This document shows, one piece after another, positions 3,634 to 54,447 of a stretch of 64,000 nucleotides of DNA (position 1 is its first letter; each line of letters begins with the position of its first letter). Below the pieces are notes generated by a model that searched no databases, was not told the DNA's origin, and saw nothing but the letters and a program-made list of their open reading frames with translations. Both the position numbers and the translations under genes were made by a program. Source of the DNA: Escherichia phage vB_EcoM-Pr103Blw; sequence record MW481326.1. One strand, 5' to 3'.

Positions 3634-9017
<5,384 letters not shown>

Positions 9018-37147: not shown

Positions 37148-37202
37148 TTTTAATAACTATGAGGGTCGTAAAAGACCCTCTAAAAATAACTTTGGAGAAA
37201 CT

Positions 37203-38772: not shown

Positions 38773-38971
38773 ACGCCTTTTGGAAGGTTTGGTTGTTGAT
38801 GCACCAGCCATTGTGATTGGTATGCTTGTTGTTAACCTATTTACTGATTTTGAACAAGGTTCATTGTTTGGAGCCATGCTATTATGGGTTATCTTTGAAA
38901 TATTAGAGATACAGCTAGGCATCACTGAAAAACTAAGAAAACTCGTTTCAAAGTTTTCTAAAAAGATTTAA
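38765..38971 (+). CDS. small membrane protein
   Basis: 68 aa, two hydrophobic stretches. Confidence 0.4.
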   Translation: MLKRLLEGLVVDAPAIVIGMLVVNLFTDFEQGSLFGAMLLWVIFEILEIQLGITEKLRKLVSKFSKKI

Positions 38972-38976
38972 AATGA

Positions 38977-39000
38977 AAGGGTCTCTTCGGAGACCTTTTT
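38977..39000 (+). terminator. rho-independent terminator
   Basis: GGTCTC-ttcg-GAGACC followed by TTTTT. Confidence 0.6.
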
Positions 39001-39019
39001 AGCATGTAAAGGGGCAATA

Positions 39020-41164
39020 ATGAACAAAGTACAGATTATTAAAAAGAATGGCTCACTTGAAGAACCGGATATCAAAAAAGTTTTAGCAGCAGTAACTAAG
39101 TCAGCTAACAGGGTTGGGTATAAAGAACTCCCACCAGATGTTACCCAAGCTCTTGAGTCAGCATTTATGAGGCTTCTGGTGAAGTCCACTAAGCAGAATA
39201 ATTTGCTCATCTCGGTAAATGACATTCACAGTATTGTTGAGGGTGCTTTGGCAGAAGTCAATCACGAGATTTACGAGTCTTACTCAACATATAGAAATTA
39301 CCGTAAAGAGGTTGCTCAAAATTGGGATGAGCTTTACCAAAAGACTAGAGACACACTCTTCTTAGGTGACCGTGAAAATGCCAACTTTGACAGCAGTTTA
39401 ATTTCTACAAAAGGTTCAATTATTCGTGGTTATCTGACTAAAGAAATCTTTAAACAATACCATTTAACACCAGAGGAACTCGAAGCCATTGAAAAAGGGT
39501 TTATCTACATCCATGACTTAAGAGACCTAATCTTTGGTGGTATTAACTGTTGCCTGTTTGACATTGGTAAAGTACTGAAAGGTGGCTTTGAGATGTCTGG
39601 CATCGAATACTGTGAACCGAAGTCTGTACTGTCAGCCTTACAAGTTATCGGTGATGTAGTTCTTTCAGCAACTGCACAGCAATTTGGTGGATTTACTTTA
39701 GCAGAGATTGATAAGGTACTTGTACCGTATGCTAAGAAGTCTCTACGCTATCATGCTGAGAAAGCAGCATCTTATGGTATTCCTAAAGAACATTACCATA
39801 ATTATGTCATGGAGCAGTTACAGATTGAATTAACTCAAGGTTTTCAGTCACTTGAAATGAAACTGAACACTGTACCTTGCAGCCGTGGTGATTTCGCATT
39901 CACAACTTTGACATTCGGACTACTTGACTCAGATATGTCTAATGAAGACAACCGACTACAATACATGATTGCAAGCACTCTCCTAGATGTTCGTATGAAT
40001 GGACAAGGTAAGAGCAAGAAGCCTGTTGTATTCCCTAAACTTGTTTATATCTACGACCAGAAGAGACATGATGAAAATATCTGTCAAGGTCACCTGTACA
40101 GTAAAGCTATCGAGTGTTGCTCTAAAGCAATGTATCCAGATTTCTTAAGTGTATCTGGTCACGGTGCTGTAGCAGAGGCTTTTGAGCGTTCTGGTAAGGT
40201 AATTTCACCGATGGGTTGCAGAGCTTTCTTGTCTCCATATCTTAACGATGATGGGGGAGAGTTCTACGTTGGTCGTGCTAACATTGGTGCTGTGTCTTTG
40301 AACTTGCCAATGATTTACCAGTATTCTAAAGAGAATGGTTTAGATTTCTGGAAAGAGCTTGATAAGTACCTAGAGATGATTCGCAGCTTCCACAAGAAAC
40401 GCTACGAAATGATTGCTAATATGCCAGCAAGTTCTAACCCTCTTGCATTCACACAAGGTGGTCTGTACAAAGGTACTAAGAAATCTACTGACAAGGTTGG
40501 CTGGGATATCGTGAAGTCCTTCACAGCTTCTTTTGGGGTTACCGCACTGGATGAGTTATCTGTTCTTGCTGAAGGTAAACGACTTCATGAAGTTGGAAGC
40601 TATAGTTTTGCATACGATGTTCTGGCATACATCAACATGAAAACTGAAGAGTTTAAAAATGAAGATGGATTCTTATATGCTGTCTATGGTACTCCAGCAG
40701 AATCACTTTGTGGAACTCAGCTAAAACAGTTCAGAGATATGTTTGGCGTTATTAAAGGCGTTTCTGACAAGGAATACTTTACAAACAGTTTCCATATGAA
40801 TGTTGCAGCAGACATCTCACCATTTGAGAAGCAGGACTTAGAAGAGCCATTCTTCCATATCTGTAGAGGTGGCAGAATCCAGTATGTCAGAGTAGCTAAC
40901 CCAGAAAACTTAACAGCACTTAAAAGCTGTATTACAAGAGGCATGTTGAAAGGTTTTTATCAGGGACTTAACTTTGACTTAGCAATCTGTGAGCATTGTG
41001 GTAACAGACCAAAGGCTGATGTTGAAGAGTGTGAGGTTTGCCATTCACATGATATTTCTGTGATTAACAGGGTGTGTGGGTATCTTGGATGGACTAAGAT
41101 TAAAGGTGAATCCCGAATGAACGATGCAAAAATCGCTGAGATTCGTGATAGAGTCTCTATGTAA
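39020..41164 (+). CDS. nrdD: anaerobic ribonucleoside-triphosphate reductase
   Basis: 714 aa; C-terminal Cys cluster (CEHCGN...CEVCHS) and glycyl-radical motif RVCGYLG. Confidence 0.9.
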   Translation: MNKVQIIKKNGSLEEPDIKKVLAAVTKSANRVGYKELPPDVTQALESAFMRLLVKSTKQNNLLISVNDIHSIVEGALAEVNHEIYESYSTYRNYRKEVAQNWDELYQKTRDTLFLGDRENANFDSSLISTKGSIIRGYLTKEIFKQYHLTPEELEAIEKGFIYIHDLRDLIFGGINCCLFDIGKVLKGGFEMSGIEYCEPKSVLSALQVIGDVVLSATAQQFGGFTLAEIDKVLVPYAKKSLRYHAEKAASYGIPKEHYHNYVMEQLQIELTQGFQSLEMKLNTVPCSRGDFAFTTLTFGLLDSDMSNEDNRLQYMIASTLLDVRMNGQGKSKKPVVFPKLVYIYDQKRHDENICQGHLYSKAIECCSKAMYPDFLSVSGHGAVAEAFERSGKVISPMGCRAFLSPYLNDDGGEFYVGRANIGAVSLNLPMIYQYSKENGLDFWKELDKYLEMIRSFHKKRYEMIANMPASSNPLAFTQGGLYKGTKKSTDKVGWDIVKSFTASFGVTALDELSVLAEGKRLHEVGSYSFAYDVLAYINMKTEEFKNEDGFLYAVYGTPAESLCGTQLKQFRDMFGVIKGVSDKEYFTNSFHMNVAADISPFEKQDLEEPFFHICRGGRIQYVRVANPENLTALKSCITRGMLKGFYQGLNFDLAICEHCGNRPKADVEECEVCHSHDISVINRVCGYLGWTKIKGESRMNDAKIAEIRDRVSM

Positions 41165-41173
41165 AACTTGACA

Positions 41174-41213
41174 AGGTGATGTGGGTCTTGATAGGCTTAC
41201 ATCACCTTTTTTA
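41174..41213 (+). terminator. rho-independent terminator
   Basis: AGGTGATGT ... ACATCACCT stem followed by TTTTTT. Confidence 0.55.
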
Positions 41214-41318
41214 TTGGATGTTAGATATGGCAGAGAGTATTATTGGGTTGTTCATAGGTTCTGTCTTACTAGGGTTCTTTTTAGGACTCTCTTATTGTGA
41301 GTTGAGAGGTAAGTTAAA

Positions 41319-41519
41319 ATGTTTAAAATATCAAAAGCGATGATATACATACTCCACATCCTAATCTTCTTCTTTGGGGTTAGCGTTATGGTATGGGGCT
41401 TTTCAGACCCACAATGGAGTTTCTCATATCATGGTCAGATGGATTTATGGTCATGCTTCAAACCATTTTTAGGGTTAGCTATAGCATTCAGCGCATTGCC
41501 AACTAAGGTGAAATTATGA
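41319..41519 (+). CDS. small membrane protein
   Basis: 66 aa, GAGAGG SD; hydrophobic; an overlapping 38-aa ORF at 41227..41343 is an alternative. Confidence 0.35.
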   Translation: MFKISKAMIYILHILIFFFGVSVMVWGFSDPQWSFSYHGQMDLWSCFKPFLGLAIAFSALPTKVKL

Positions 41520-41911
41520 TTAAGTTGAACCAAAAACAGTTAGAGTGGATTAAAGATTACGCTTCAGAGTGTGGCTCTTGTGAAAAGAATCACGTAAGAT
41601 ACTCAACATTCCGCACGACCTTTACATTGTACATCAGTGACAACGTTCTAAGTGATTCCGTAGAAGATGGTGCAGCGTTGCCTAATGAGTTGCTTGACAA
41701 ATTAGTTGTAGTCACTGGAACTTGGTCTGAAGAAGACGGTCACGAATTATCTAACGATGTTGTCTTCTACAGTATTGAAAACATTATGAATCCAGAGTAC
41801 ATTATGTTAATAACTTGTGCACAAGACTGTGTGCCATTGCAAAACTTCATTAAAGAGCACTGTGAAGAGTTTATTACTAAACTGGTTCCTTATCAGGTGG
41901 TGTTTGAATGA
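41516..41911 (+). CDS. hypothetical protein
   Basis: 131 aa, ATGA-coupled. Confidence 0.45.
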   Translation: MIKLNQKQLEWIKDYASECGSCEKNHVRYSTFRTTFTLYISDNVLSDSVEDGAALPNELLDKLVVVTGTWSEEDGHELSNDVVFYSIENIMNPEYIMLITCAQDCVPLQNFIKEHCEEFITKLVPYQVVFE

Positions 41912-42207
41912 GTAAAACAATTCGAAGAAAAGGTTTAAAGAACGTTCATGGACTCTATGAGTGGAGAAATGAGGTACGTAACAGAGAAAATGCTTCAGAT
42001 GTCTACTTCCATTCTGATATGATGTCCAGAAAAGGTGGCTCTTATGACTTTACAAGTCAGCCGTGTAGAGAGATTAAGAAGGCTACTAAACGTCTTACAA
42101 GAACACAAATAAGGCAGCTTTCTAAGACATCCTTCTTAGATGAAGACTTTGACATTGACAGTAAGTCTCCAAAGAAAGCTGCTCAGAACACTTATATGTA
42201 TTGGTGA
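41908..42207 (+). CDS. hypothetical protein
   Basis: 99 aa, basic. Confidence 0.45.
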   Translation: MSKTIRRKGLKNVHGLYEWRNEVRNRENASDVYFHSDMMSRKGGSYDFTSQPCREIKKATKRLTRTQIRQLSKTSFLDEDFDIDSKSPKKAAQNTYMYW

Positions 42208-42216
42208 GGTAACTAG

Positions 42217-42702
42217 ATGAATTACATGGAGATTCGACCATTTGACACAGCTAATGGTGAAGGGGTTCGTGTAAGCCTCTTCGTAGCTGGTTGTAAGCAT
42301 CACTGTGAAGGCTGCTTTAACAGGGAGTCTTGGAAGTTTAATGCTGGTAAAGAGTTTACTTATGCAAACCTCTACGGCATCATCAAGCTAATGGATGATA
42401 AGGCCATCAGTGGGCTGTCAATACTTGGTGGGGAGCCTCTGGATGACAGAAATATTCAAGAGGTCACCAACATATGCAAACGTGTTAAAACTGTTTACCC
42501 AGAAAAGTCTATATGGCTTTGGACAGGTTTTCAGTTACACGAAAAAATTCACCTAGATGTGATGAAATATATTGACGTGGTGATTGATGGTAAGTATGAT
42601 GCTTCTAAACCAACAGTTAAACCATATCGTGGTTCTGATAACCAAAACCTCTGGAGAAAAGAGTATGGGTGGCAAGGTGATTGTCAATGGCGAGCAGAGT
42701 AA
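42217..42702 (+). CDS. nrdG: anaerobic RNR activating protein (radical SAM)
   Basis: 161 aa with CKHHCEGCFN (CxxxCxxC radical-SAM cluster). Confidence 0.8.
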   Translation: MNYMEIRPFDTANGEGVRVSLFVAGCKHHCEGCFNRESWKFNAGKEFTYANLYGIIKLMDDKAISGLSILGGEPLDDRNIQEVTNICKRVKTVYPEKSIWLWTGFQLHEKIHLDVMKYIDVVIDGKYDASKPTVKPYRGSDNQNLWRKEYGWQGDCQWRAE

Positions 42703-43268: not shown

Positions 43269-43589
43269 ATGAGCAAAGTTTATAACACTCGTAAATTACA
43301 GATTTTCGTACTGTGCCAGTTTATGGCTAAAGAGTATAACTACTACTACTGTGGCACAGGATTCATTAGTGATGATGACGGCTCATATCTACCATTCAAA
43401 GAGGCTGTAAAACTCTTCAATGAAGAGAAAAGCTCTAAGAAAGATATTGAAAAGGTTAAGCTAACCTACAGCAAGAAAGATAAGAAGATTATCTGCCTAG
43501 ATAACTTTGTAAAAGTTACTGGAGAAGCAAAAGAGTTTATGGATGAGAGTGAAATCTCGTTCACAAGTATCTTGAAAGTAGCTCAGTAA
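43269..43589 (+). CDS. hypothetical protein
   Basis: 106 aa. Confidence 0.45.
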   Translation: MSKVYNTRKLQIFVLCQFMAKEYNYYYCGTGFISDDDGSYLPFKEAVKLFNEEKSSKKDIEKVKLTYSKKDKKIICLDNFVKVTGEAKEFMDESEISFTSILKVAQ

Positions 43590-43601
43590 ACAGATACTAT
43601 A

Positions 43602-43630
43602 AGGGAACTGCAAAGGTTCCCTTTTTATTT
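43602..43630 (+). terminator. rho-independent terminator
   Basis: GGGAAC-tgcaaag-GTTCCC followed by TTTTTATTTT. Confidence 0.6.
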
Positions 43631-43640
43631 TGGAGACAAT

Positions 43641-44156
43641 ATGTATCTGTCAAATCTAAAACGTTCTGCTGCAATGTCAGTTCTAAGACTCAGCTTTGAG
43701 GAACGTCAAGAGTTCATCGACTCCCACCAATACGACCCTTCTAACTCAAACCACATGATTCTCTGGAATCGTGAGAGTACTCGTGAACGAGCACTATTCC
43801 GCTATTACCCACACTACACTATAGATAACCTGTATGAATGTTTTGTTGTGAAGAACACCATTACAGTGCTCAATAAGCTTTGTAGATACACAGGTAACCA
43901 GTCCTTCACATTAGGCCACCACAAGCCTGTTACAAAAGGTGGCGAACATCACTGTGCGAACTGGTTTATCCAAACTAAATCTGATAACCAGAAGCAAGGA
44001 GATAATCTTTTAAGCACCTCTAAGATGACCTATGAAGAGCAAGAGAGATATATCAAAAATAATATGCCAGATGTGCTTGACAACAACTATACAGATTTGG
44101 CAATATCTCTCCTGTTGAAGTTCGAGACAGTTTATAGGGCAACTTACAATGGCTAA
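43641..44156 (+). CDS. HNH endonuclease-like protein
   Basis: LGHHKPVTKGGEHHCANWFIQTKSDNQKQGDN resembles HNH core (HH..P..GG...N). Confidence 0.5.
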   Translation: MYLSNLKRSAAMSVLRLSFEERQEFIDSHQYDPSNSNHMILWNRESTRERALFRYYPHYTIDNLYECFVVKNTITVLNKLCRYTGNQSFTLGHHKPVTKGGEHHCANWFIQTKSDNQKQGDNLLSTSKMTYEEQERYIKNNMPDVLDNNYTDLAISLLLKFETVYRATYNG

Positions 44157-44427
44157 AGAGAAGTGGGAAATTTTACCATTAGTGAGTGAAGGTGGTAACG
44201 GTTGTGAGATGTACATGATACGAGGTCATGTTCCAGAACCAATTGCACTTGAGATGGTAAACAATTTTACAGATGGCTCTTACAAAGATTTAGGAGAGCC
44301 AACTATAAAGCATCAATGGGTCAAACCTGTACCAGACAGCACAGGTAACTGTAGTGTACTTTATCACGTTGTAGACCCTGCAAAATGCAAATCTGCAATG
44401 GCAGTAACAAACATAACTTTTGATTGA
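44149..44427 (+). CDS. hypothetical protein
   Basis: 92 aa. Confidence 0.4.
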   Translation: MAKEKWEILPLVSEGGNGCEMYMIRGHVPEPIALEMVNNFTDGSYKDLGEPTIKHQWVKPVPDSTGNCSVLYHVVDPAKCKSAMAVTNITFD

Positions 44428-44440
44428 GAGAGAGAAAACT

Positions 44441-44905
44441 ATGATTTTTTGCAATTCCCAGAAGCATGTAATAGAGATTCTATATAAGGAGTTTGGTACA
44501 GAGAACACCTTTGACTCAAATGAAGCAATTGATGTACTAAGAGAAAAAAGCCTCTTTATAAGAGGTCAATCAATTAACAATGCTCGTGGCTACCTAACAG
44601 TGCTAAGGCAATCCGGTGTACTGATAACTGTAGGCCAAATAAAAAGTAAGGGGAGACTAAGCATCAACCAGATTAACCGAGCTTTTATGGAGAAACACCC
44701 ACAACTATCACGAATGTTAGATGATGGACATGGGGAGGTAAAGAGCCTTCAAAAAACAACCTCGACCGATGTTAATTCAGTTGACATACAACCAGATGTT
44801 AGGTATTTTATTGAGGATGTGATGTTTAAAACAATGGATGAAGCAGTTGAACACTGTAAAAAACATCTGATTAAAGTTAAACGTGCAAAGATTGTTTGGG
44901 AATAA
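44441..44905 (+). CDS. tandem paralog A (unknown function)
   Basis: ATG 44441 after GAGAGAGAG SD; shares EILYKEFGT..FDSNEAI...PQLSR...KYFI.. and C-terminal K.K..IWE with paralog B. Confidence 0.5.
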   Translation: MIFCNSQKHVIEILYKEFGTENTFDSNEAIDVLREKSLFIRGQSINNARGYLTVLRQSGVLITVGQIKSKGRLSINQINRAFMEKHPQLSRMLDDGHGEVKSLQKTTSTDVNSVDIQPDVRYFIEDVMFKTMDEAVEHCKKHLIKVKRAKIVWE

Positions 44906-44938
44906 TACTTCAAAAACTTCTATTGAGAGAAAAAGAAC

Positions 44939-45391
44939 ATGTTAAGTTCATTTTACATAGCACTGACTGAGATTCTATATAAAGAATTTGGTACAGATAC
45001 CATCTTTGACTCTAATGAGGCTATAAAAGCTCTCAGAAGTGGAAGTGACTACCTAAGTAAAAGCCCTATAGCAAACATTCGGTATTACTTGACCACAATG
45101 CGTAAAATGGGGCTACTGATGGCTGTAAGTCAGGGAACAAAAGACTGTGCTTCTCTATACCTAAACCAACTAAATAAAATGATGATAGAGAGCGACCCAC
45201 AACTATCAAGACTACTTGATAGTGTTGACACAACTAATAGGAATACAAGAACATCAAAACCAAAAGGTGAGTTCCTCCCTGATGCAAAATACTTTATTGA
45301 TGAACTAATGTTTGATACCATAGAAGATGCAGTTGAGTATTGCAAAAAGAATATTATTAAGTTGAAAAGAAAGAAAATTATTTGGGAATAA
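44939..45391 (+). CDS. tandem paralog B (unknown function)
   Basis: 150 aa; same motifs and equivalent SD context as paralog A. Confidence 0.5.
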   Translation: MLSSFYIALTEILYKEFGTDTIFDSNEAIKALRSGSDYLSKSPIANIRYYLTTMRKMGLLMAVSQGTKDCASLYLNQLNKMMIESDPQLSRLLDSVDTTNRNTRTSKPKGEFLPDAKYFIDELMFDTIEDAVEYCKKNIIKLKRKKIIWE

Positions 45392-45426
45392 AACCAAGAA
45401 AACTACCATTATCGAGAGAGAGAACT

Positions 45427-46308
45427 ATGAAAACGTCTATCCGTGTTACAGTTCATTCACCAACTAAAGGAACTCATGAAGAAGAGTTTAACATCATCCA
45501 ATTCCCTTCTGGTGAGATTGGTGGACACTTTTCGCCAGAGTTTGTTGATTTTACTGCTTATGCAGCATCATCCATCAACAATGTGATTATGATTGTAAAA
45601 GGTTATGATAAAGACACATTGTTTGCTGTGGCACTTGCTAAAGAAGCAATTGATGATTTAGTACCTCATAAGTTTGCTATGAAGACCATTATCTTTTACT
45701 ATTTGCCAAATGCACGTTATGACCGTCACATGTTTAAAGGTGATGCAGCAGCTTTGAAAGTGTTTGCACAACAGGTTAATGCAATGGGTTTTGATGCAGT
45801 CTGTGCAGTTGACCCTCACAGCTATGTACCAGATAACCTGTTTAACTGCTTCCAGAGTATCCCCCAAAAGGAGATTGCAGTCCACTATGCGAATGACCCA
45901 CTGGTTGATTACTTAGTAGCCCCAGATGCAGGTGCTGCTAAGAAGATTGCAGAAACTGCTAAAGAGGTGGATAAACCATATATCACAATGTCTAAAGTAC
46001 GTAACCTTAAGACTGGTGAAATTACTGGTATGCGAATCCTTGATGATGTTGATTTGGCAGATAAAACCGTCATGATTCTGGATGATATTTGTGATGGGGG
46101 ACGAACCTTCATAGAAGCAGCTAAACATCTTCGTGAAGCAGGTGCAAAACGTGTGGAACTCTATGTAACACATGGTATCTTCTCTAAAGATGTTGAAAAC
46201 CTTCTTGACAATGGCATTGACCACATCTACACTACAAACTCTTTAGGGGAAGCTAAAGACCGTGGCTTAACACATTATGGCCAAGTTACTGTAGCAAACC
46301 TTGATTAA
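45427..46308 (+). CDS. PRPP-synthetase-family pyrophosphokinase (Prs-like; candidate ADP-ribose pyrophosphokinase of a two-gene NAD+ reconstitution cassette)
   Basis: ATG 45427 (GAGAGAGAG SD); Prs-like VDPH, APDAGAAKK and PRPP-loop ILDDICDGGRT motifs; directly upstream of NAMPT-like gene. Confidence 0.8.
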   Translation: MKTSIRVTVHSPTKGTHEEEFNIIQFPSGEIGGHFSPEFVDFTAYAASSINNVIMIVKGYDKDTLFAVALAKEAIDDLVPHKFAMKTIIFYYLPNARYDRHMFKGDAAALKVFAQQVNAMGFDAVCAVDPHSYVPDNLFNCFQSIPQKEIAVHYANDPLVDYLVAPDAGAAKKIAETAKEVDKPYITMSKVRNLKTGEITGMRILDDVDLADKTVMILDDICDGGRTFIEAAKHLREAGAKRVELYVTHGIFSKDVENLLDNGIDHIYTTNSLGEAKDRGLTHYGQVTVANLD

Positions 46309-46317
46309 AACTTTATA

Positions 46318-46338
46318 GGGGCTTAAAAGCCCCATTTT
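46318..46338 (+). terminator. short intercistronic hairpin (weak terminator or processing site)
   Basis: GGGGCTT-aa-AAGCCCC then ATTTT; weak T-run. Confidence 0.35.
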
Positions 46339-46353
46339 GAGAGAGATTAAAAG

Positions 46354-48135
46354 ATGACTAAATCACTTTATGCAGTACCAGCAGGTTTAAACGCAGATGC
46401 TTACAAATCTGGTCACATCTACCAGTATCCTAGTGCAACAGAGTACTTGATGTTCAACCTGACACCACGTAGCGACAAATGGTTTAACAGCCCCTTAGCA
46501 ATTGATGGTGTAGTTGCTTTTGGTATTCAGCGTTTTGTTAAAGATTACCTGATAGACCACTGGAACGCCACCTTCTTCGAACGTGACAAAAAAGAAGCAA
46601 TTGACGAAATCTTAGAAGTCATGAACGGTGTTCTGGGTAAAGATGCTATTGGTCGAGAGCATTGGGAAGCACTTCACGACTTAGGTTATCTGCCAGTTGA
46701 AGTATACGCTGTAGAAGAAGGCACAGTTGTCCCTATGCGTGTTCCGATGATTGTTTTCCAGAACACTGTTTCAGGTTTCCATTGGGTAGCGGGGTATCTG
46801 GAAGATGCTTTCTCTGCTGAGATTTGGAAGGCTTGTACCATTGCAACTATTGCATTGCACTACAAACGTATCTGTAAGAAGTGGGCTGACCTTACTTGTG
46901 ACAACGACTTACATTTACCTTATCAGTGCCATGACTTCGCTATGCGTGGTATGTCTGGCTTTACTGATGACGCATTTAACGCTGTAGGTCACTTAACCAG
47001 CTTTAAAGGAACTGATAGCTTCCCTGCTGTGTATACAGCTAAACGTATCTATGGACAGTCCTACCCAATATCTGATATTGGTAGCTCTGTACCAGCCACT
47101 GAACACTCTGTAATGTGTGCAAACATTGCTTGGGAAGGTGGTAATGAGTTGATTGAAGAAGAAAGACGCTTTAAAGGTGAGTTACAAACCTTCCGTCGTT
47201 TCTTAACAGAAACTTACCCAACTGGTATTGCAAGTGTTGTTTCAGACACTTATAATTTCTGGAGAACTGTGTCAGAAATCTTACCAGCACTTCGTAAAGA
47301 GATTATGGAACGTGACGGCAAACTGGTAATTCGTCCTGACTCTGGAGACCCTGTACATATTGTCACAGGATACAAAGCAATCCATTTAGAGTGTGCTAAA
47401 AAGGCTTATTACGAACACCTAAGTAAGCTGGAAGCCAGCGACACAATGTTGAATGCTGTTCTGAACATGAAGCTTGAAAACATCAATTATGGTATTGCTG
47501 GATGGCTACTGTCAGAAGGCTACGAAATGGTTGTTGACAGAGAAGACTTTGAAGTTGCTGATACAGTGCTGTTGAAAAACGCTTATATGGTTGGTTCTGC
47601 AAATGTTGTAACACGTCCTGTAGCAGAGATTGATGGGGCTATTAAGACCTTGTATAACATCTTTGGAGGAACTATCAACTCTAAAGGGTTTAAGGTACTG
47701 GATGAGCACATTGGCCTTATCTATGGTGACTCTATCACGTTGGAACGCGCAAACGAAATCCTTAAGCGTTTGTATGAAATGGGTTTTGCAAGCTCTAACG
47801 TAGTGTTTGGTGTAGGTTCTTACACTTACCAGTACATGACTCGTGACACCTTTGCATTTGCTGTCAAAGCAACTCTTGCAAGCATTGGTGGTAAAGAGAT
47901 TATGCTTGCAAAAGACCCTAAAACAGATAGTGGTGTTAAGAAGTCTGCTTTTGGTGGTGTAGCCCCTATGTGGGATGGTGAGAATCTGAAAGCTGTAGAT
48001 GGCTATGGATTCCAGAGCTTTGCAGATGCACTTGAACATCCAGCTTGTGCTTTACATTTAGTCTTTAGCGACTCTGAGCAGTTCGGCTACACAACTCTTG
48101 GTGATATTCGAAATAATATTGACAAGCATCTTTAA
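46354..48135 (+). CDS. nadV: nicotinamide phosphoribosyltransferase-family protein (NAMPT/NadV-like; candidate nicotinamide ADP-ribose transferase)
   Basis: 593 aa; DAYKSGH near N-terminus, HDFAMRG, SFKGTD, SVPATEHS, VVSDTYNFW and RPDSGDP match conserved NAMPT segments. Confidence 0.9.
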   Translation: MTKSLYAVPAGLNADAYKSGHIYQYPSATEYLMFNLTPRSDKWFNSPLAIDGVVAFGIQRFVKDYLIDHWNATFFERDKKEAIDEILEVMNGVLGKDAIGREHWEALHDLGYLPVEVYAVEEGTVVPMRVPMIVFQNTVSGFHWVAGYLEDAFSAEIWKACTIATIALHYKRICKKWADLTCDNDLHLPYQCHDFAMRGMSGFTDDAFNAVGHLTSFKGTDSFPAVYTAKRIYGQSYPISDIGSSVPATEHSVMCANIAWEGGNELIEEERRFKGELQTFRRFLTETYPTGIASVVSDTYNFWRTVSEILPALRKEIMERDGKLVIRPDSGDPVHIVTGYKAIHLECAKKAYYEHLSKLEASDTMLNAVLNMKLENINYGIAGWLLSEGYEMVVDREDFEVADTVLLKNAYMVGSANVVTRPVAEIDGAIKTLYNIFGGTINSKGFKVLDEHIGLIYGDSITLERANEILKRLYEMGFASSNVVFGVGSYTYQYMTRDTFAFAVKATLASIGGKEIMLAKDPKTDSGVKKSAFGGVAPMWDGENLKAVDGYGFQSFADALEHPACALHLVFSDSEQFGYTTLGDIRNNIDKHL

Positions 48136-48149
48136 AAGTATATGATAAG

Positions 48150-48172
48150 AGGCTCCTACGGGAGCCTTTTTA
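48150..48172 (+). terminator. rho-independent terminator
   Basis: AGGCTCC-tacg-GGAGCCT followed by TTTTTAATTT. Confidence 0.6.
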
Positions 48173-49060: not shown

Positions 49061-51427
49061 ATGCGCATGGTAAACGACCACGCAGAAGTGATTAAGAGTT
49101 CAACTTCTCTAGAGACGTCTCAAGCACAGATTACAATGACACCTGAAATGTTCAGCCTTTTGAGTTCTGGTGTATACACCTTTAAAGAAAGGGCAGTGAT
49201 TCGTGAACTGTCATGTAACGCAGTAGATGCTCAGAAAGAAGCTGGAAAAGAGAACATCCCGTTCCATGTGCATTTACCTACTCGTTTTGAGCCTTACTTT
49301 GAAGTTCGTGATTTTGGAACCGGATTGACTCATGATAAAGTTATGAGTTTGTACCTAAACTATGGAGCTTCTACGAAGAATGACTCTAATGACTACATTG
49401 GTGCAATGGGTATCGGCTCAAAATCACCATTTGCAATTGCTCAGTCATTCACAGTGTCTAGCTATGTTGATGGTGTTGTTAATAAGTACTCTGTTTACCT
49501 TGAGAATGGTATCCCTCAAGTAACTAAGCTAACTACCAACCCAACGAATGAACCTAATGGTTTAGCTGTACGTGTAGCAGTTGCTGACCATCGTATTTCA
49601 AAGTTCTTTGAAGAGGCTGGTAATGTATACTCATACTTTGCTGTAAAACCAGAAAGTAATATCGAGTATGACGATGTATTAGCAGATATGAACGTCATTG
49701 CCCGTGAAGAAGGTGTTTATGATGCCATGATTCATAAGCAAAGCTGGCGTTCTAGTGGTAACAGGACAGAGTTTAATGTGGTGATGGGTAACATTGCCTA
49801 CCCTGTTAATATGGAAGCATTACTTGGTGATGATTTCTTCAAAGTATTGCCAGAATTTTTCCGTAGGAGCGTAGACCTTGTAAACATCTACATGCCTATT
49901 GGTTCAGTTGCTATTGCAGCTTCTCGTGAAGCATTGCAGATGAATGACACGACAAAAAACGTTATCATTGAGGCTACTAAAAAGATAACTGAAGCAATTA
50001 CAAAGGATGTTATCAAGAAAGTTAATAGCCAACCTACACTCATGGATGCTGCACAGGCTTATGCTGAGTTACGTTTGAACTCACGAGAGATGTTTAATGC
50101 TGTGTGTCCAAAGCTAGAGTGGGGCGGTGTTAAGCTTGATTCTCTGGAAGAAGAATTACTAAACATTCGTCGTGGAATTATCTACGCAGAAGACGGCTCA
50201 GTCATTTACGAACGTGACGGTAAAGGCAATATCAAGGTTGATAGGAACGGGAACAATATCCCTAAAGTAGATTATCTTTATGACCCAGTTGCTTATGTCA
50301 AGTTCAACTCTTTAGAGAGTAAGATTCGTGCAACATCGCTTTCCTACACTCAAGAGGCAAGTATGTTCAATATCTTTGGCGCAATGCGTAAAAGTCAAAT
50401 TGAACAGTTTTTGTTTGTTATAAATGACCGTCGAAATAAAAATGGTACTGAGAAGACTGTAGGACGCAACCAAATCTTGCGTGGTGCATGTCGAGACTAT
50501 GCCAGTGAGTCAAGTCTGTTTCACAGATACAATGGTATTGTCTTTGTATTCTCTACAGAGAAAGAGCTAGACGACTTAATCAATCTGCACAAACTTGATA
50601 AAAGCTTGTTAAAGATTGTGAAGATGTCTGACAAGGAACATCATTATCAGCGTAAAGAAGCTGTAAGAGGTGTTGTAAAACTCTGGAAAGCTGTTCCAGC
50701 AGAAGGTGTAGCTTCATACAAAGAGGTGTCAGAAGACTTAGATACGATTGAAGAACCTCAGCTTTACATTAAGGCAGTCGGTGACACAGTTGATGGTGAA
50801 TGTTTTTGCTCATCTCCAGAAGATGTAGCTAAGTCAGTTGCTAATGTTACAGGTAAGACAGTCTATGTTTTCCGAAAAGCAAATTGGAAAAAGATACCAG
50901 AAGACTGGATTGAAGTAGATGAGAAGCTCTTGAATGACAGCTTAACTGATGTTCACTGGATTAACCATAACAGGTATATGACACGTATCTATATGAATGG
51001 TGTCCTCGACCTTACAAGTAGTTGGATTATTGCCAGAAACTTTACGTTCAATAACAGGAAGATTTCTCGTGGCTATTGTTATTCACGGGATACAAACAAA
51101 ACTATCTTCTTAGAAGGTAATGAAGATGCTGTAGAGGCAATGTTTGGTAAAATCCAATACGTTGCTGCACCGTTTGCATATACTTACACTATTAGTAGGT
51201 TGCAAACTTTGAAAGACTGCCTTGACAATGATACAAAGCTTTACAAGAAAATTAAGAAAGCTGGTGACCGCATGGTCATTAAGGTGACAAACTACCTTTC
51301 AAAAAGAAAACAAGAAAACTTCTTGCTTTCTCATTTAGATTGGAATAAAGTGTCACCCATCGAAGTGAGTAAGTTCTTAGGCTTTGATGTGAAGTGTGTT
51401 CCAGAAGGGACTACAATTTACGATTAA
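49061..51427 (+). CDS. rIIA: rIIA protein (GHKL ATPase-like N-terminus)
   Basis: 788 aa; RAVIRELSCNAVDA, VRDFGTGLT and YIGAMGIGSKSPF parallel T4 rIIA N-terminal segments. Confidence 0.85.
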   Translation: MRMVNDHAEVIKSSTSLETSQAQITMTPEMFSLLSSGVYTFKERAVIRELSCNAVDAQKEAGKENIPFHVHLPTRFEPYFEVRDFGTGLTHDKVMSLYLNYGASTKNDSNDYIGAMGIGSKSPFAIAQSFTVSSYVDGVVNKYSVYLENGIPQVTKLTTNPTNEPNGLAVRVAVADHRISKFFEEAGNVYSYFAVKPESNIEYDDVLADMNVIAREEGVYDAMIHKQSWRSSGNRTEFNVVMGNIAYPVNMEALLGDDFFKVLPEFFRRSVDLVNIYMPIGSVAIAASREALQMNDTTKNVIIEATKKITEAITKDVIKKVNSQPTLMDAAQAYAELRLNSREMFNAVCPKLEWGGVKLDSLEEELLNIRRGIIYAEDGSVIYERDGKGNIKVDRNGNNIPKVDYLYDPVAYVKFNSLESKIRATSLSYTQEASMFNIFGAMRKSQIEQFLFVINDRRNKNGTEKTVGRNQILRGACRDYASESSLFHRYNGIVFVFSTEKELDDLINLHKLDKSLLKIVKMSDKEHHYQRKEAVRGVVKLWKAVPAEGVASYKEVSEDLDTIEEPQLYIKAVGDTVDGECFCSSPEDVAKSVANVTGKTVYVFRKANWKKIPEDWIEVDEKLLNDSLTDVHWINHNRYMTRIYMNGVLDLTSSWIIARNFTFNNRKISRGYCYSRDTNKTIFLEGNEDAVEAMFGKIQYVAAPFAYTYTISRLQTLKDCLDNDTKLYKKIKKAGDRMVIKVTNYLSKRKQENFLLSHLDWNKVSPIEVSKFLGFDVKCVPEGTTIYD

Positions 51428-51432
51428 AGTGT

Positions 51433-51462
51433 TTGACAAGGGGCTTCAAAGCCCCTTAGAAT
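51433..51462 (+). promoter_or_regulatory. sigma70-like promoter with hairpin in spacer
   Basis: TTGACA-18 nt-TAGAAT; spacer holds AAGGGGC-ttcaaa-GCCCCTT stem-loop; upstream of rIIB. Confidence 0.4.
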
Positions 51463-51506
51463 AGCCTTACAAAATGATTTATTAACTAACAAGAGAGAGT
51501 AATAAG

Positions 51507-52616
51507 ATGACTACTAAAACTAAAGCACAGATTGACGCAGAAATTTACGAACTGGTTAAAGAAGGTAAGCTGACTAAAACAGCTATTGCACAGAAGTTCA
51601 ATACTTCAACCCGTTCAGTTGGTCGTGCTGTAGAGCGTCATGAAGCAACCTTAAAAGGTAAGAAGAAGGCGACTTCTACACCAGCTAAGAAGACCCTAAA
51701 GCAAGTTGCTAAGTCAGTTAAAAAGAAAGCTGGCAAACCAGTTGAAAAGGTCGTTAAAGACGCTGTACAGAAAGCTCCAGTAAATAAACTGCATGAAGCT
51801 ATGCAGAAAGATGACAAGATTGAGTACATGATTACTGGTGACTCTGTAATTATGACTTACGGTTCAGAATCTGAAATTGTTGAGTCTACTCATCCGAACT
51901 ATCAAGAGATTGTAGTTCATGTTGTGAAAGGTGAGTTCAAGAAAGCATTTGAACTGATGAACATTCGTAAGTCTATCGAAAACTTCACTCAGGGTGCTAT
52001 CACAATCAAAGGTGACAAGCTCTTCTACGGTGCTGTTGAGATGCGTTCTACTCTGGTTGACCGTATTCTTCACATGATGAAAACTGGTGATAAAGGTTTT
52101 GAACGACTTGTAATGTTCTTCGAAAAACTGATGGAAAACCCATCTAAAGATTCTGTAGAACAACTTTGGGGATTTGTATCTCACCTTGATGTTGAAATTG
52201 ATGAAGAAGGTTACATCATTGGTTGGAAGAAAGTCTCTACTCGTGAAGGCAAGCTGGTTGACTCTCACACCTACAAAGTGCCTAATGATTTGGGTAACAT
52301 TGTAGAGATGCCACGTTGGATGGTTGATAACAACCGTAACGTAACTTGCTCTCAAGGTCTTCATGTTGGCGCTTGGGATTATGTTCGTTGCTTCTCAGGT
52401 GATACCATCCTGAAGGTTCGTGTCCATCCACGAGATGTTGTATCTGTTCCGACTGATTACAACGATATGAAGATGCGTTCCTCTCGTTATGAAGTTGCAG
52501 CAATCGTTGATAATCAACGTAAAGTGCTGAAAGCATGGGATGGTAAGACTGAAGCTTTGCATGTCATCGTTGGCACTGCTGGTGAACTCATCTCTCAACG
52601 TAAACGTGAAATCTAA
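51507..52616 (+). CDS. rIIB: rIIB protein
   Basis: 369 aa; LFYGAVEMRSTLVDRIL, CSQGLHVG and VRVHPRDVVSVPTDYNDMKMR closely parallel T4 rIIB segments. Confidence 0.8.
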   Translation: MTTKTKAQIDAEIYELVKEGKLTKTAIAQKFNTSTRSVGRAVERHEATLKGKKKATSTPAKKTLKQVAKSVKKKAGKPVEKVVKDAVQKAPVNKLHEAMQKDDKIEYMITGDSVIMTYGSESEIVESTHPNYQEIVVHVVKGEFKKAFELMNIRKSIENFTQGAITIKGDKLFYGAVEMRSTLVDRILHMMKTGDKGFERLVMFFEKLMENPSKDSVEQLWGFVSHLDVEIDEEGYIIGWKKVSTREGKLVDSHTYKVPNDLGNIVEMPRWMVDNNRNVTCSQGLHVGAWDYVRCFSGDTILKVRVHPRDVVSVPTDYNDMKMRSSRYEVAAIVDNQRKVLKAWDGKTEALHVIVGTAGELISQRKREI

Positions 52617-52716: not shown

Positions 52717-53265
52717 ATGAAGAAATTGATTCTAGGCTTGTGCTTAATGTTTACAGCACACTTATCTTATGCAGTTGACTGCCCAGAGCTAACAATTAGC
52801 CAAAAAGTAAACATGTTAAAAGCTTACCAGTATGGTGAGAATAATATGGGTAAAGGTTGGGGTATTACTCTAGCAGCTATAGCCTTACAAGAGTCAGAGT
52901 TAGGTCTGAAGGTAGAGAATAAAAAGACCCACGACTATGGTATTTTCCAGAATCACTTGAAGACTGTTGTAAAGCGTAACAAAATTAGTCCTAATGTGGC
53001 TAAAAAGAAACTCTTAAAAGATTTTGACTATGCAGCAAAAGAGACGCATAAAGAGCTTGAGTTTTGGACTAAGGTACATGGTCACCCGAAGTCAAAGAAG
53101 ACTTTACAAAAAGTTTTAGCATCATATAATGCTGGGTATTCGTACAAAATCCCTAAAGCTAAGAAATACTCTCAAGATGTCTATAACAATATGAAAGTTA
53201 TTGCTCAATGTGAATTTGCAACAAACATTTCTAAGGTAAATCATGAAAAAATTAAGAAAGTCTGA
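52717..53265 (+). CDS. secreted lytic transglycosylase-like protein (SLT/GH23-like)
   Basis: Signal peptide MKKLILGLCLMFTAHLSYA; AIALQESELG...DYGIFQ resembles SLT catalytic Glu-Ser region. Confidence 0.5.
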   Translation: MKKLILGLCLMFTAHLSYAVDCPELTISQKVNMLKAYQYGENNMGKGWGITLAAIALQESELGLKVENKKTHDYGIFQNHLKTVVKRNKISPNVAKKKLLKDFDYAAKETHKELEFWTKVHGHPKSKKTLQKVLASYNAGYSYKIPKAKKYSQDVYNNMKVIAQCEFATNISKVNHEKIKKV

Positions 53266-53938
53266 TGAAGTCCTGTGCCACGCTTATGACTTGCATCCTC
53301 ATGAGTTAGGTCTTGATTCCTGTGTATGGACTCCAGAACAGTGCAGGGATTTTGAAGACACTGCAAGAGAAGTTGTATGTTCACTTGAAGAGTTCCACAC
53401 ATCAGAACCAATTGTGAACGTTGTGGATAAAGAAACTGGACAAGCTATAGGTGTAAGTCGTGATAGTTTAGTCATAGTCAATAAAGACCTTGTAGAAAAA
53501 GGTAACCTCATCTTAGCAGATATTGATGGTGTTCTTACAAATTTTAATCACGAAGACTGCTCAACGGAATTGACTGATGGGTCATTCTCACAGTACACTA
53601 ATCTTCTTGACTCTGTAAGAGCAAAACCAACATATGTTTTTAGTATTATTGATGCAATTGCTAATCATGCTGCCATTGGACTCTTGACAGCGAGAGGTGA
53701 ATCTCAGAGAATACCTACTGAGATGTTTTTAAGGCATAACATAGAACATGATTACATGCTTTTTATGCGTGGTTTTGGAACTAACTCTATAAGTGCAGAA
53801 AGTTTAAAAGTGAGGATGATTCAGTCTTGCATTCTTCCTTATTTTAATATAGTATGCTTTATAGAAGATACAGAGAAGAATGTTCAGAAGGTTAACAGAA
53901 TCCTTCCACACATTAAAACCATGTTAGTTAAACATTGA
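53243..53938 (+). CDS. HAD-family phosphatase-like protein
   Basis: 231 aa; ILADIDGVLTNF matches HAD motif I (DxDGVL). Confidence 0.35.
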   Translation: MKKLRKSDEVLCHAYDLHPHELGLDSCVWTPEQCRDFEDTAREVVCSLEEFHTSEPIVNVVDKETGQAIGVSRDSLVIVNKDLVEKGNLILADIDGVLTNFNHEDCSTELTDGSFSQYTNLLDSVRAKPTYVFSIIDAIANHAAIGLLTARGESQRIPTEMFLRHNIEHDYMLFMRGFGTNSISAESLKVRMIQSCILPYFNIVCFIEDTEKNVQKVNRILPHIKTMLVKH

Positions 53939-54414: not shown

Positions 54415-54426
54415 GGTTAAGATACA

Positions 54427-54447
54427 GGCTCCTTCGGGAGCCTTTTT
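54427..54447 (+). terminator. rho-independent terminator
   Basis: GGCTCC-ttcg-GGAGCC followed by TTTTTCATTT. Confidence 0.6.

What the first reader, a model, noticed from the sequence alone, without database searches (positions are those of the whole stretch)
45427..48135. Adjacent Prs-like and NAMPT-like genes: candidate two-enzyme NAD+ reconstitution (anti-NAD+-depletion) cassette
A PRPP-synthetase-family gene (PRPP-binding loop ILDDICDGGRT) sits directly upstream of a NAMPT-family gene on the same strand, preceded by a tandem pair of unknown paralogs. I see no NMN adenylyltransferase (NadD/NadM/NadR-like) in the 64 kb, so a classical Nam to NMN to NAD+ salvage route is not completed by phage genes here. 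The architecture instead matches the phage pathway reported in the literature, as I recall it, in which a Prs homolog pyrophosphorylates ADP-ribose and a Nampt homolog condenses the product with nicotinamide to regenerate NAD+ from the products of NAD+-cleaving immune effectors (TIR, SIR2, SEFIR-type systems such as Thoeris or DSR). Older annotation would call these housekeeping prs and nadV. Whether this Prs homolog uses ADP-ribose or ribose-5-phosphate cannot be decided by eye.
Basis: partly seen in the sequence, partly recalled or inferred. Interest (0 to 1): 0.9.

Follow-up and report, generated by a model that had tools for sequence, protein, structure and literature searches.

The report
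Phage NAD+ rebuilding operon (NARP1)

Summary
Window 45427-46308 (+) encodes a 293-aa Prs-family protein. Window 46354-48135 (+) encodes a 593-aa NAMPT-family protein. Two tandem paralogs lie upstream, and no ORF of 100 aa or more gave a reported NMNAT-family Pfam hit.

The window is a Felixounavirus-type phage. The two proteins are 80% and 98% identical to gp79 and gp80 of Escherichia phage JohannRWettstein (Bas63). NARP1 (Adps + Namat) was discovered in that phage (Osterman et al., bioRxiv 10.1101/2024.02.11.579819).

The Namat homolog keeps 18 of the 21 checked residues of the solved SPbetaL1 Namat structure, including the tested core residues; the other three are substituted as in Bas63 Namat. 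It also keeps the Namat-specific motif GSYTYQYMTRD. The Adps homolog keeps the lysine that was mutated in SPbetaL1 Adps. It fails every NCBIfam Prs equivalog cut-off.

There is no Macro (Adpp) or RyR (RyDEP) accessory gene in the locus, so this is the basic two-gene NARP1.

Minor open points:
- An orphan pair of winged-helix proteins appears to be co-transcribed upstream of adps.
- The 5' half of adps is divergent.
- A conserved hairpin sits between adps and namat.

The parts
45427..46308 (+). adps: ADP-ribose pyrophosphokinase (ADPR-PP synthetase), 293 aa, Prs-family fold
   Evidence: It is 80% identical over its full length to Bas63_0079. It scores 101 bits against the biochemically characterised SPbetaL1 Adps and 66 bits against E. 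coli Prs. K190 aligns with the mutated catalytic K162 of SPbetaL1 Adps. It falls below all NCBIfam Prs equivalog cut-offs.
46354..48135 (+). namat: nicotinamide ADP-ribose transferase, 593 aa, NAMPT-family fold
   Evidence: It is 98% identical to Bas63_0080. The best PDB matches are 9w5w and 9w5x, the SPbetaL1 Namat sequence (E 8e-128; identified). Of 21 catalytic and NAD+-contact residues, 18 are identical and 3 are substituted as in Bas63. The motif GSYTYQYMTRD lies at residues 488-498.
46318..46333 (+). Intercistronic GC-rich hairpin GGGGCTTAAAAGCCCC followed by ATTTTG, between adps and namat
   Evidence: Read directly from the sequence. The stem is invariant in Bas63, finno and the Mooglevirus Mordin, while the flanking bases vary. 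Its function (partial terminator, or RNA stability or processing site) is inferred, not shown.
48147..48170 (+). Terminator-like hairpin AAGAGGCTCC-TACG-GGAGCCTTTT plus T-run, 12 nt after the namat stop codon; likely end of the transcription unit
   Evidence: Found in the scan. It is invariant in Bas63 and Mordin, and a terminator is annotated at the same place in Mordin.
48119..48146 (+). Sigma-70-like promoter match TTGACA-16-TATGAT (11 of 12) overlapping the 3' end of namat and abutting the terminator; probably serves the downstream genes
   Evidence: Found and conserved in Bas63 and Mordin. This is a consensus match only.
44441..44905 (+). Paralog A (154 aa), an orphan winged-helix protein immediately upstream in the same orientation; role unknown
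   Evidence: It hits phrog_29478 at 7e-70 and is 47% identical to paralog B. It is absent from Bas63. It is present as a pair at the same position in Mordin and in metagenomic contigs.
44939..45391 (+). Paralog B (150 aa), an orphan winged-helix protein directly upstream of adps; role unknown
   Evidence: In the AlphaFold model, residues 1-95 have pLDDT of about 85-92 and form a helix-turn-helix plus beta-hairpin wing. Foldseek matches PadR, MarR and SarX winged-helix proteins with probability 0.9-1.0 but weak E-values of about 0.02. The family has only 4 clusters among 1.84 billion representatives.
43641..44427 (+). Two conserved small genes (171 aa, phrog_3500, weak HNH-like match; 92 aa, phrog_4726) that open the putative six-gene unit
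   Evidence: Identified. Orthologues are bas63_0077 and bas63_0078; the gp78 orthologue is 95% identical at the DNA level.
43572..43623 (+). Promoter-like match TTGAAA-17-TACTAT, followed directly by the hairpin AAGGGAAC...GTTCCCTT and a T-run; likely upstream boundary of the unit
   Evidence: Found. It has the same promoter-AAG-hairpin-T-run-GGAGA-ATG layout as the 48119-48170 module. A terminator is annotated at the equivalent place in Mordin.

Best explanation
The two genes are the NARP1 (NAD+ reconstitution pathway 1) operon of a Felixounavirus-type phage. NAD+-depleting host defences (SIR2-HerA/Nezha, DSR1, DSR2, type I Thoeris, SEFIR) cleave NAD+ into ADP-ribose and nicotinamide. Adps (45427-46308) then uses ATP to pyrophosphorylate the free ribose of ADP-ribose, giving ADPR-pyrophosphate. 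Namat (46354-48135) replaces that pyrophosphate with nicotinamide and regenerates NAD+ directly. No NMN intermediate or NMN adenylyltransferase is needed. This restores the NAD+ pool and lets the phage complete its cycle. What is shown here: orthology to Bas63 gp79/gp80, conservation of catalytic and specificity residues, gene order, and absence of an NMNAT, Macro or RyR gene in the locus. What is shown elsewhere: the anti-defence phenotype and the in vivo ADPR-PP intermediate for Bas63, and the enzymology and crystal structure for the SPbetaL1 homologs. What is inferred: that this phage's own proteins perform the same reactions, and that the genes are transcribed as one unit running from the hairpin at 43601-43623 to the terminator at 48147-48170.
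For: The window is a Felixounavirus: 258 phage records match, mostly Escherichia and Salmonella Felixounavirus, at up to 96% DNA identity across the locus. Synteny with Bas63 genes 77-85 is complete. Adps is 80% and Namat 98% identical to Bas63_0079 and Bas63_0080. Deleting those two Bas63 genes sensitises the phage to SIR2-HerA. Rescue is independent of host pncC and nadR. ADPR-PP appears only with wild-type phage plus the defence system (bioRxiv 10.1101/2024.02.11.579819). Of 21 Namat residues mapped from the SPbetaL1 Namat structures, 18 are identical. These include the catalytic-core residues tested by mutation, F195, D221 and R327, and the catalytic histidine H251. The remaining 3 are substituted exactly as in Bas63. 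[quoted passage not shown] Xanthomonas Nampt has GGALLQKVDRD at the same place. The selectivity loop carries K42-W43 exactly as in Bas63 Namat. Adps K190 aligns with SPbetaL1 K162, whose mutation impaired NAD+ production. Adps shares with SPbetaL1 and FADO Adps, but not with E. coli Prs, the motifs PDAGAAK, K-x-RN-x-x-TGEI and TT[DN]SL. It scores 92.8-106.2 bits on Prs models with cut-offs of 296-297, whereas E. coli Prs scores 532.6. No NMNAT family appears among the window ORFs.
Against: No protein from this phage or from Bas63 has been assayed in vitro; the Bas63 Adps did not purify, so the enzymology comes from SPbetaL1. SPbetaL1 Adps aligns at only about 28% (global) to 35% (local) identity with the window Adps. 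The window Adps differs from the Bas63 protein at 59 of 293 positions, mostly in the N-terminal 180 residues. No Adps structure turned up in the PDB search, so ADPR-versus-ribose-5-P specificity cannot be read from residues. SPbetaL1 Namat can make NMN from PRPP in vitro when ADPR-PP is absent. Standard family libraries do not separate Namat from Nampt. The roughly 23 kb of genome outside the window was not examined.
Confidence: 0.92

Rival explanations
1. Classical salvage, as the database annotation says. The Prs homolog makes PRPP from ribose-5-phosphate. The NAMPT homolog makes NMN from PRPP and nicotinamide. The host (NadR or PncC route) finishes NAD+ synthesis, simply boosting nucleotide and NAD+ supply for replication.
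For: Pfam, PHROGs, NCBIfam and nearly all GenBank records name the genes this way. SPbetaL1 Namat retains PRPP-dependent NMN synthesis in vitro. The core Prs motifs (RxDR, DPH, DDxxxxGxT) are kept.
Against: In the congeneric Bas63, the operon still rescued the phage in a host lacking pncC and nadR. ADPR-PP was detected in vivo. SPbetaL1 Adps yielded no measurable Prs product but did convert ADPR. The window Adps fails every Prs equivalog cut-off. The Namat carries the adenine-clamp signature that Nampt lacks.
Confidence: 0.04
2. A NARP2-type pathway. The NAMPT homolog makes NMN from PRPP, and a phage NMN adenylyltransferase encoded elsewhere in the genome completes NAD+ synthesis, as in Vibrio phage KVP40.
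For: Only 64 kb of a probable ~87-kb genome was seen, so an NMNAT outside the window cannot be formally excluded from the window alone.
Against: No NMNAT family was reported among 63 ORFs of 100 aa or more, or among the locus genes. The protein has the Namat signature rather than the Nampt one. It is paired with an Adps-clade gene; 97% of Adps genes sit next to a Namat. The authors found no phage carrying both NARP1 and NARP2.
Confidence: 0.01
3. An extended NARP1. The basic pair works together with further phage genes in this genome. Candidates are the co-transcribed winged-helix pair (as regulators or partners) and the distal TARG1/DarG-like Macro-domain protein at 56272-57057, which might feed ADP-ribose derivatives into the pathway in trans. 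This adds to the best explanation rather than replacing it.
For: Accessory genes in NARP1 operons have been described: the Macro-domain phosphatase Adpp in 15% of NARP1 phages and the RyR-domain glycosidase RyDEP. The winged-helix pair sits in the same terminator-bounded unit in this window, in Mooglevirus Mordin and in 24 or more metagenomic contigs. A Macro-domain gene lies on the same strand 8 kb downstream.
Against: The winged-helix pair has no enzymatic or ADPR-binding domain signature. It is absent from Bas63, whose NARP1 works without it. The Macro protein is about 13 genes away and is found in 2,784 phage records, including many T4-like phages. It did not match Poa1p (PDB 6LFQ), the closest known relative of Adpp, at E <= 0.01; its matches were TARG1/OARD1 and Appr-1-p-type macrodomains in the PDB and the DarG model in NCBIfam.
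Confidence: 0.1

Closest known systems
NARP1 of Escherichia phage JohannRWettstein (Bas63), genes bas63_0079 (Adps) and bas63_0080 (Namat); Osterman et al., bioRxiv 10.1101/2024.02.11.579819
   Same: Same genus and same gene order (gp77, gp78, adps, namat, three small genes, rIIA, rIIB). The proteins have identical lengths (293 and 593 aa). Namat is 98% and Adps 80% identical. The intercistronic hairpin and downstream terminator are the same.
   Different: The window has a ~1-kb insertion of two winged-helix paralog genes between the gp78 homolog and adps. The first ~500 nt of adps are only 58-83% identical at the DNA level, against about 90% for the rest of adps and 94% for namat. The window's Adps allele is the commoner one in the genus: about 155 records at 90% identity or more.
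NARP1 of Bacillus phage SPbetaL1 (Adps; Namat PDB 9w5w/9w5x; NAR 2026, PMC12774641)
   Same: Same two-gene order. The catalytic lysine of Adps is conserved. Of 21 Namat NAM/NAD+-contact residues checked, 18 are identical. The SCH motif has the same form (GSFTYQYNTRD versus GSYTYQYMTRD).
   Different: Adps aligns at only about 28% (global) to 35% (local) identity. The window Namat is 102 aa longer, with insertions at roughly residues 258-278 and 340-427. The selectivity loop is 4 residues longer and uses K42-W43 in place of R40. S190 becomes A196 and A362 becomes S460.
NARP1-AP (Adps-Adpp-Namat, Vibrio phage Gary) and RyDEP-containing NARP1 (mycobacteriophage DyoEdafos)
   Same: Same core Adps + Namat pair and the same logic of rebuilding NAD+ from ADP-ribose.
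   Different: No Macro-domain or RyR-domain gene lies within the locus. By the published result that Adps cannot use ADPR-1''-phosphate, this phage's NARP1 should not by itself overcome aRES-type depletion.
NARP2 / KVP40 NadV-NatV (Nampt + NMNAT) and cellular Prs + Nampt salvage
   Same: Same protein folds (Prs family, type II phosphoribosyltransferase), the same nicotinamide-transfer chemistry and the same catalytic histidine.
   Different: The substrate is ADPR-PP rather than PRPP. No NMNAT is needed. Nampt lacks the adenine clamp: GSYTYQYMTRD here versus GGALLQKVDRD in Xanthomonas Nampt.

Membership tests
NARP1 (Adps + Namat) | A Prs-family protein belonging to the phage Adps clade rather than to cellular Prs | tested here: met
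   It is 80% identical to Bas63 Adps, one of the clade's query sequences. It scores 101 bits against SPbetaL1 Adps and 66 bits against E. coli Prs. It shares the motifs PDAGAAK, KxRNxxTGEI and TT[DN]SL with SPbetaL1 and FADO Adps but not with Prs. No full phylogeny was built here.
NARP1 (Adps + Namat) | Catalytic lysine of Adps (K162 in SPbetaL1; K162A impaired NAD+ production) | tested here: met
   K190 aligns with K162 in a MAFFT alignment of four Adps proteins and E. coli Prs.
NARP1 (Adps + Namat) | A Namat homolog immediately next to adps (97% of Adps-clade genes) | tested here: met
   namat starts 45 nt after the adps stop codon on the same strand.
NARP1 (Adps + Namat) | Namat catalytic core (SPbetaL1 F189, D215, R306, catalytic His) intact | tested here: met
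   The equivalents F195, D221, R327 and H251 are present, along with D15, Y17, R198, A248, D329, G458 and D459 (residue roles).
NARP1 (Adps + Namat) | [quoted passage not shown] | tested here: met
   The motif is GSYTYQYMTRD at residues 488-498 (Y490, Y494). Phi3 is Met rather than the usual Asn or Val, exactly as in Bas63.
NARP1 (Adps + Namat) | Selectivity-clamp loop supplying an adenine-stacking residue (Arg at position 3, or Lys/Tyr followed by the stacking residue) | tested here: met
   The loop TPRSDKWFNSPLAID has K42 aligned to R40, followed by W43. It is identical to the Bas63 Namat loop described in the paper.
NARP1 (Adps + Namat) | Enzymatic activities: ADPR + ATP gives ADPR-PP; ADPR-PP + nicotinamide gives NAD+ | not testable with these tools
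   Shown for the SPbetaL1 proteins in vitro, and ADPR-PP was detected in Bas63-infected cells. Inferred here by orthology.
NARP1 (Adps + Namat) | Counter-defence phenotype against NAD+-depleting systems | not testable with these tools
   Shown for Bas63 lacking genes 79-80 on SIR2-HerA hosts. Not tested for this phage.
NARP2 (Nampt + NMNAT) | An NMN adenylyltransferase encoded by the same phage (94% of cases) | tested here: not met
   No NMNAT or cytidylyltransferase Pfam family was reported among 63 ORFs of 100 aa or more plus the locus genes. The genome outside the window was not seen.
NARP1-AP (with Adpp phosphatase) | A Macro-domain gene within two genes of the NARP1 pair | tested here: not met
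   The four genes upstream and three downstream have no Macro hit. The only Macro gene is at 56272-57057, about 8 kb away. It is TARG1/DarG-like and widespread across phage genomes, including T4-like phages.
RyDEP-associated NARP1 | A RyR-domain glycosidase gene inside the NARP1 locus | tested here: not met
   No Pfam hit of any kind on the neighbouring small genes. The inserted pair is predicted to be winged-helix.
Housekeeping ribose-phosphate diphosphokinase (Prs) | Score above the curated NCBIfam equivalog or PRK cut-offs | tested here: not met
   It scores 106.2 against a cut-off of 296 (NF002095) and 92.8 against 297 (NF002320). Only the broad TIGR01251 subfamily model is passed (124.9 against 113). 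E. coli Prs scores 532.6, and SPbetaL1 Adps behaves like the window protein.

The most novel reading that the evidence does not exclude
The orphan tandem pair of winged-helix proteins (44441-44905 and 44939-45391) lies in the same terminator-bounded unit as adps-namat. It recurs as a pair at exactly this position in two Ounavirinae genera and in 24 or more metagenomic contigs. It could be a new NARP1-linked accessory module: for example a heterodimeric regulator that tunes operon expression, or a separate anti-defence function riding in a variable slot. The linked divergent 5' half of adps may reflect co-adaptation or an arms race acting on Adps.
Probability: 0.08. Interest if true: 0.45.

Novelty: already known. 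Interest (0 to 1): 0.1.

Why it matters
NARP1 is an important recent discovery: viruses rebuild a metabolite that host immunity destroys, through two reactions not previously described. This window adds nothing to it, because the system was found in a phage of the same genus and these genes are its orthologs. The practical value is in annotation. The genes are still labelled prs and nadV (or 'nicotinate phosphoribosyltransferase') in nearly all database records and in Pfam, PHROGs and NCBIfam. They should be read as adps and namat. The phage would therefore be predicted to resist SIR2-, TIR- and SEFIR-type NAD+-depleting defences, but not aRES-type depletion, since it lacks Adpp. That prediction is relevant when choosing Felixounaviruses for therapy or biocontrol.

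Tried and rejected
1. Looked for an NMNAT by Pfam-scanning 63 window ORFs in two pooled batches. None was found, so NARP2 was rejected.

2. Asked whether the upstream paralogs are known NARP1 accessories (Macro/Adpp or RyR/RyDEP). Pfam, NCBIfam and PHROGs gave no such domain. The structure prediction gave a winged-helix N-terminal domain and a low-confidence C-terminus. Foldseek against the PDB gave only generic winged-helix regulators at weak E-values. A profile search of 1.84 billion representatives found only 4 clusters. No function could be assigned.

3. Asked whether the Macro-domain protein at 56272-57057 is an Adpp acting in trans. It is TARG1/DarG-like, did not match Poa1p at E <= 0.01, and occurs in 2,784 phage records, including T4-like phages. 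It was set aside as not specific to NARP1.

4. Looked for an Adps structure or paper that would allow a residue-level test of ADPR versus ribose-5-P. Neither the PDB nor the held library yielded one.

5. Tried to define promoters inside the unit. The sigma-70 consensus matches are no more frequent than in shuffled sequence (36 found against 28.7 +/- 5.6), so the operon structure remains an inference from terminators and gene spacing.

6. A search for further copies of the promoter-hairpin module found only the two copies it was derived from, so it carries no independent weight.

7. The pairwise BLAST script could not read the FADO and E. coli loci at the time it ran. The E. coli comparisons were redone with protein comparison.
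Full report
**1. Observation**

The ORF list shows a 293-aa ORF from the ATG at 45427 to the stop at 46308. A 593-aa ORF follows at 46354-48135 on the same strand.
- The first ORF carries the Pribosyltran and Pribosyl_synth domains, and the quoted loop ILDDICDGGRT is present.
- The second carries the NAPRTase and NAMPT_N domains.
- PHROGs places them in phrog_619 (8e-98) and phrog_448 (9e-202).
- The two upstream genes, 44441-44905 and 44939-45391, are true paralogs: 47% identical, E 3e-39.
- I pooled 63 window ORFs of 100 aa or more into two batches and scanned them against Pfam. No NMNAT or cytidylyltransferase family was reported. One of the two family lists was cut at 25 of 31 families, but the hidden ones all have E > 1.3e-4.

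The caveat is that a Felixounavirus genome is about 87 kb and only 64 kb is in the window.

**2. What the window is**

Megablast of 45000-48500 hits 258 phage records, almost all Escherichia, Salmonella or Shigella Felixounavirus, at up to 96% identity. One hit is Escherichia phage JohannRWettstein, also called Bas63. Its annotated region has the same order as the window: nrdD, nrdG, small genes, gp77, gp78, 'ribose-phosphate pyrophosphokinase' (bas63_0079), 'nicotinamide phosphoribosyltransferase' (bas63_0080), three small genes, rIIA, rIIB.

**3. Identity with the published system**

A full-text search found the primary paper (Osterman et al., bioRxiv 10.1101/2024.02.11.579819). It describes the following:
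- Genes 79-80 of Bas63 were deleted, and the mutant became sensitive to SIR2-HerA.
- Rescue did not need host pncC or nadR.
- ADPR-pyrophosphate appeared only with wild-type phage plus the defence system.
- The homologous SPbetaL1 enzymes were shown in vitro to convert ADPR + ATP to ADPR-PP (Adps) and ADPR-PP + nicotinamide to NAD+ (Namat).
- The pathway was named NARP1 and was found in 859 of 20,185 phage genomes.

The window proteins are 80% (Adps) and 98% (Namat) identical to the Bas63 proteins. They have the same lengths and align without gaps.

**4. Residue-level tests: Namat**

A 2026 structural paper (PMC12774641) gives the NAM and NAD+ contacts of SPbetaL1 Namat. It also defines a 'selectivity clamp' that separates Namat from Nampt. 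I retrieved SPbetaL1 from the phage collection and mapped every listed residue.
- These residues are conserved in the window Namat: D15, Y17, F195, R198, D221, A248, H251 (catalytic His), R327, D329, G458, D459, G488, S489, Y494, T496, R497, D498.
- F392 becomes Y490, which is still aromatic.
- Two contact residues are substituted (S190 to A196, A362 to S460), identically in Bas63.
- The clamp-helix signature GS-X-Phi-X-Phi-X-Phi-TRD reads GSYTYQYMTRD.
- At the same place, Xanthomonas Nampt has GGALLQKVDRD, and PDB 9ke8 has GAQTYQRNTRD.
- The clamp loop has K42-W43, the arrangement the paper describes for Bas63.

**5. Residue-level tests: Adps**

- K190 aligns with SPbetaL1 K162, the residue mutated in the paper.
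- The window Adps is nearer to SPbetaL1 Adps (101 bits) than to E. coli Prs (66 bits).
- With SPbetaL1 and FADO Adps it shares motifs that E. coli Prs lacks.
- It fails all NCBIfam Prs equivalog cut-offs, as does SPbetaL1 Adps, while E. coli Prs passes easily.
- No Adps structure turned up in the PDB search, and no structural paper was found. The substrate pocket therefore cannot be assessed directly.

**6. Which variant of NARP1**

Two extensions have been described. One adds a Macro-domain ADPR-1''-phosphatase, Adpp, inside the operon (NARP1-AP). The other adds a RyR-domain glycosidase, RyDEP. Neither domain is present within the locus, so this is the basic two-gene form.

A Macro-domain protein does exist at 56272-57057. 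Its matches are TARG1/OARD1 and Appr-1-p-type macrodomains in the PDB and the DarG model in NCBIfam. Poa1p did not appear at E <= 0.01. The protein occurs in 2,784 phage records, including many T4-like phages. I treat it as a separate matter.

**7. Anatomy of the locus**

- A terminator-like hairpin sits at 43601-23 and a strong one at 48147-70. Together they bracket six co-oriented, tightly spaced genes: gp77-like, gp78-like, paralog A, paralog B, adps and namat.
- Terminators are annotated at both equivalent positions in Citrobacter phage Mordin, which has the same six genes.
- Each hairpin is directly preceded by a promoter-like match. The downstream one (TTGACA-16-TATGAT) and its hairpin are invariant in Bas63 and Mordin.
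- A short GC hairpin at 46318-33 between adps and namat has an invariant stem in four phages from two genera.

Operon structure and the roles of these elements are inferred, not shown.

**8. What differs from Bas63**

- Bas63 goes straight from gp78 to adps. The window has about 1 kb carrying the two paralogs.
- The first ~500 nt of adps are only 58-83% identical to Bas63, against about 90% for the rest of adps and 94% for namat.
- Phage finno has four genes in the same slot.
- The paralogs' best relatives in 50,697 phage records are 57% identical or less. They occur in only 15 records and always as a pair.
- A 99%-identical copy of paralog B exists in at least 24 metagenomic or SRA contigs with the same architecture.
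- A profile search of 1.84 billion representatives finds only four clusters.
- The AlphaFold model gives a confident winged helix-turn-helix for residues 1-95 and nothing reliable for the conserved C-terminus. Foldseek finds PadR, MarR and SarX-type regulators at weak E-values.

The function of the pair is unknown. Bas63's NARP1 works without it.

**9. Verdict**

The finding is nevertheless a rediscovery. The window carries orthologs of the very genes in which NARP1 was discovered, and both the mechanism and a Namat structure are published. Novelty: already known. Interest: low. The residual open items are the winged-helix pair, the divergent Adps N-terminal half, and the conserved RNA hairpin. 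These are minor and speculative.

Noticed in passing
window 56272-57057 (+): A 261-aa Macro-domain protein (PF01661, E 7e-7). Its matches are TARG1/OARD1 and Appr-1-p-type macrodomains in the PDB and the DarG antitoxin model in NCBIfam; PHROGs calls it 'phosphatase'. It is found in 2,784 phage records, including T4-like phages. It could be a counter-measure to ADP-ribosylating defences such as DarTG, or a source of free ADPR, but it is not specific to NARP1.
   Followed up: partly
window 44428-45930, compared with L001 (Bas63) 3937-4450: A mosaic breakpoint. The slot upstream of adps is variable: empty in Bas63, four genes in finno, two in the window. The adjoining 5' half of adps is much more divergent (58-83% DNA identity; 53 non-synonymous and 56 synonymous codon differences in 180 codons) than its 3' part or namat (13 non-synonymous and 82 synonymous in 593 codons). 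Two Adps alleles circulate in the genus.
   Followed up: partly
window 44424-44443, 44923-44941, 45411-45429, 46337-46356: The two paralogs, adps and namat are each preceded by a similar purine-rich translation-initiation region (TTGAGAGAGA... or ATCGAGAGAGAGAAC, then ATG). In Bas63 the same motif joins gp78 directly to adps. These short repeats could be the sites at which gene cassettes are gained or lost.
   Followed up: partly
window 46318-46333: A conserved hairpin GGGGCT(T/G)(A/G)AAAGCCCC between adps and namat. The stem is invariant across Felixounavirus and Mooglevirus. Its role is unknown; it may set the Adps:Namat ratio or stabilise the mRNA.
   Followed up: partly
window 48119-48170 and 54426-54443: A promoter-like TTGACA-16-TATGAT abuts the terminator hairpin, so transcripts from it would start inside the hairpin. 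A nearly identical hairpin (AGGCTCC-TTCG-GGAGCCT plus T-run) recurs at 54426-54443.
   Followed up: partly
window 46354-48135, protein residues about 258-278 and 340-427: Felixounavirus and Mooglevirus Namat is about 100 aa longer than the crystallised SPbetaL1 Namat because of two insertions. The larger one (about 88 aa) follows the RPDSGDP strand. It is shared with Bas63 and was not analysed here.
   Followed up: no
relatives listed (e.g. Shigella phage Z31 MN655999, Escherichia phage vB_EcoM_D4 PP886228): Some Felixounaviruses have an extra ~470 bp in or next to the adps-namat locus, and an HNH endonuclease is annotated under the match. PHROGs also holds half-length Namat families (phrog_16547, phrog_15800), which suggests split genes in some genomes.
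   Followed up: no
PDB 9ke8/9keo: A solved 'nicotinamide phosphoribosyltransferase' that matches the window Namat closely (E 5e-104) has GAQTYQRNTRD at the clamp helix. It lacks the two aromatic residues, so it may be a phage Nampt-type (NARP2-like) enzyme rather than a Namat.
   Followed up: no
window 33482-34237, 53243-53938, 49061-52616, 34913-42702: Other nucleotide-metabolism and accessory genes are present in the window. These are a MazG-like pyrophosphatase, a polynucleotide kinase, rIIA and rIIB, aerobic and anaerobic ribonucleotide reductases with NrdG, thymidylate synthase, DHFR and a dNMP kinase. No tRNA genes were found in the window.
   Followed up: no
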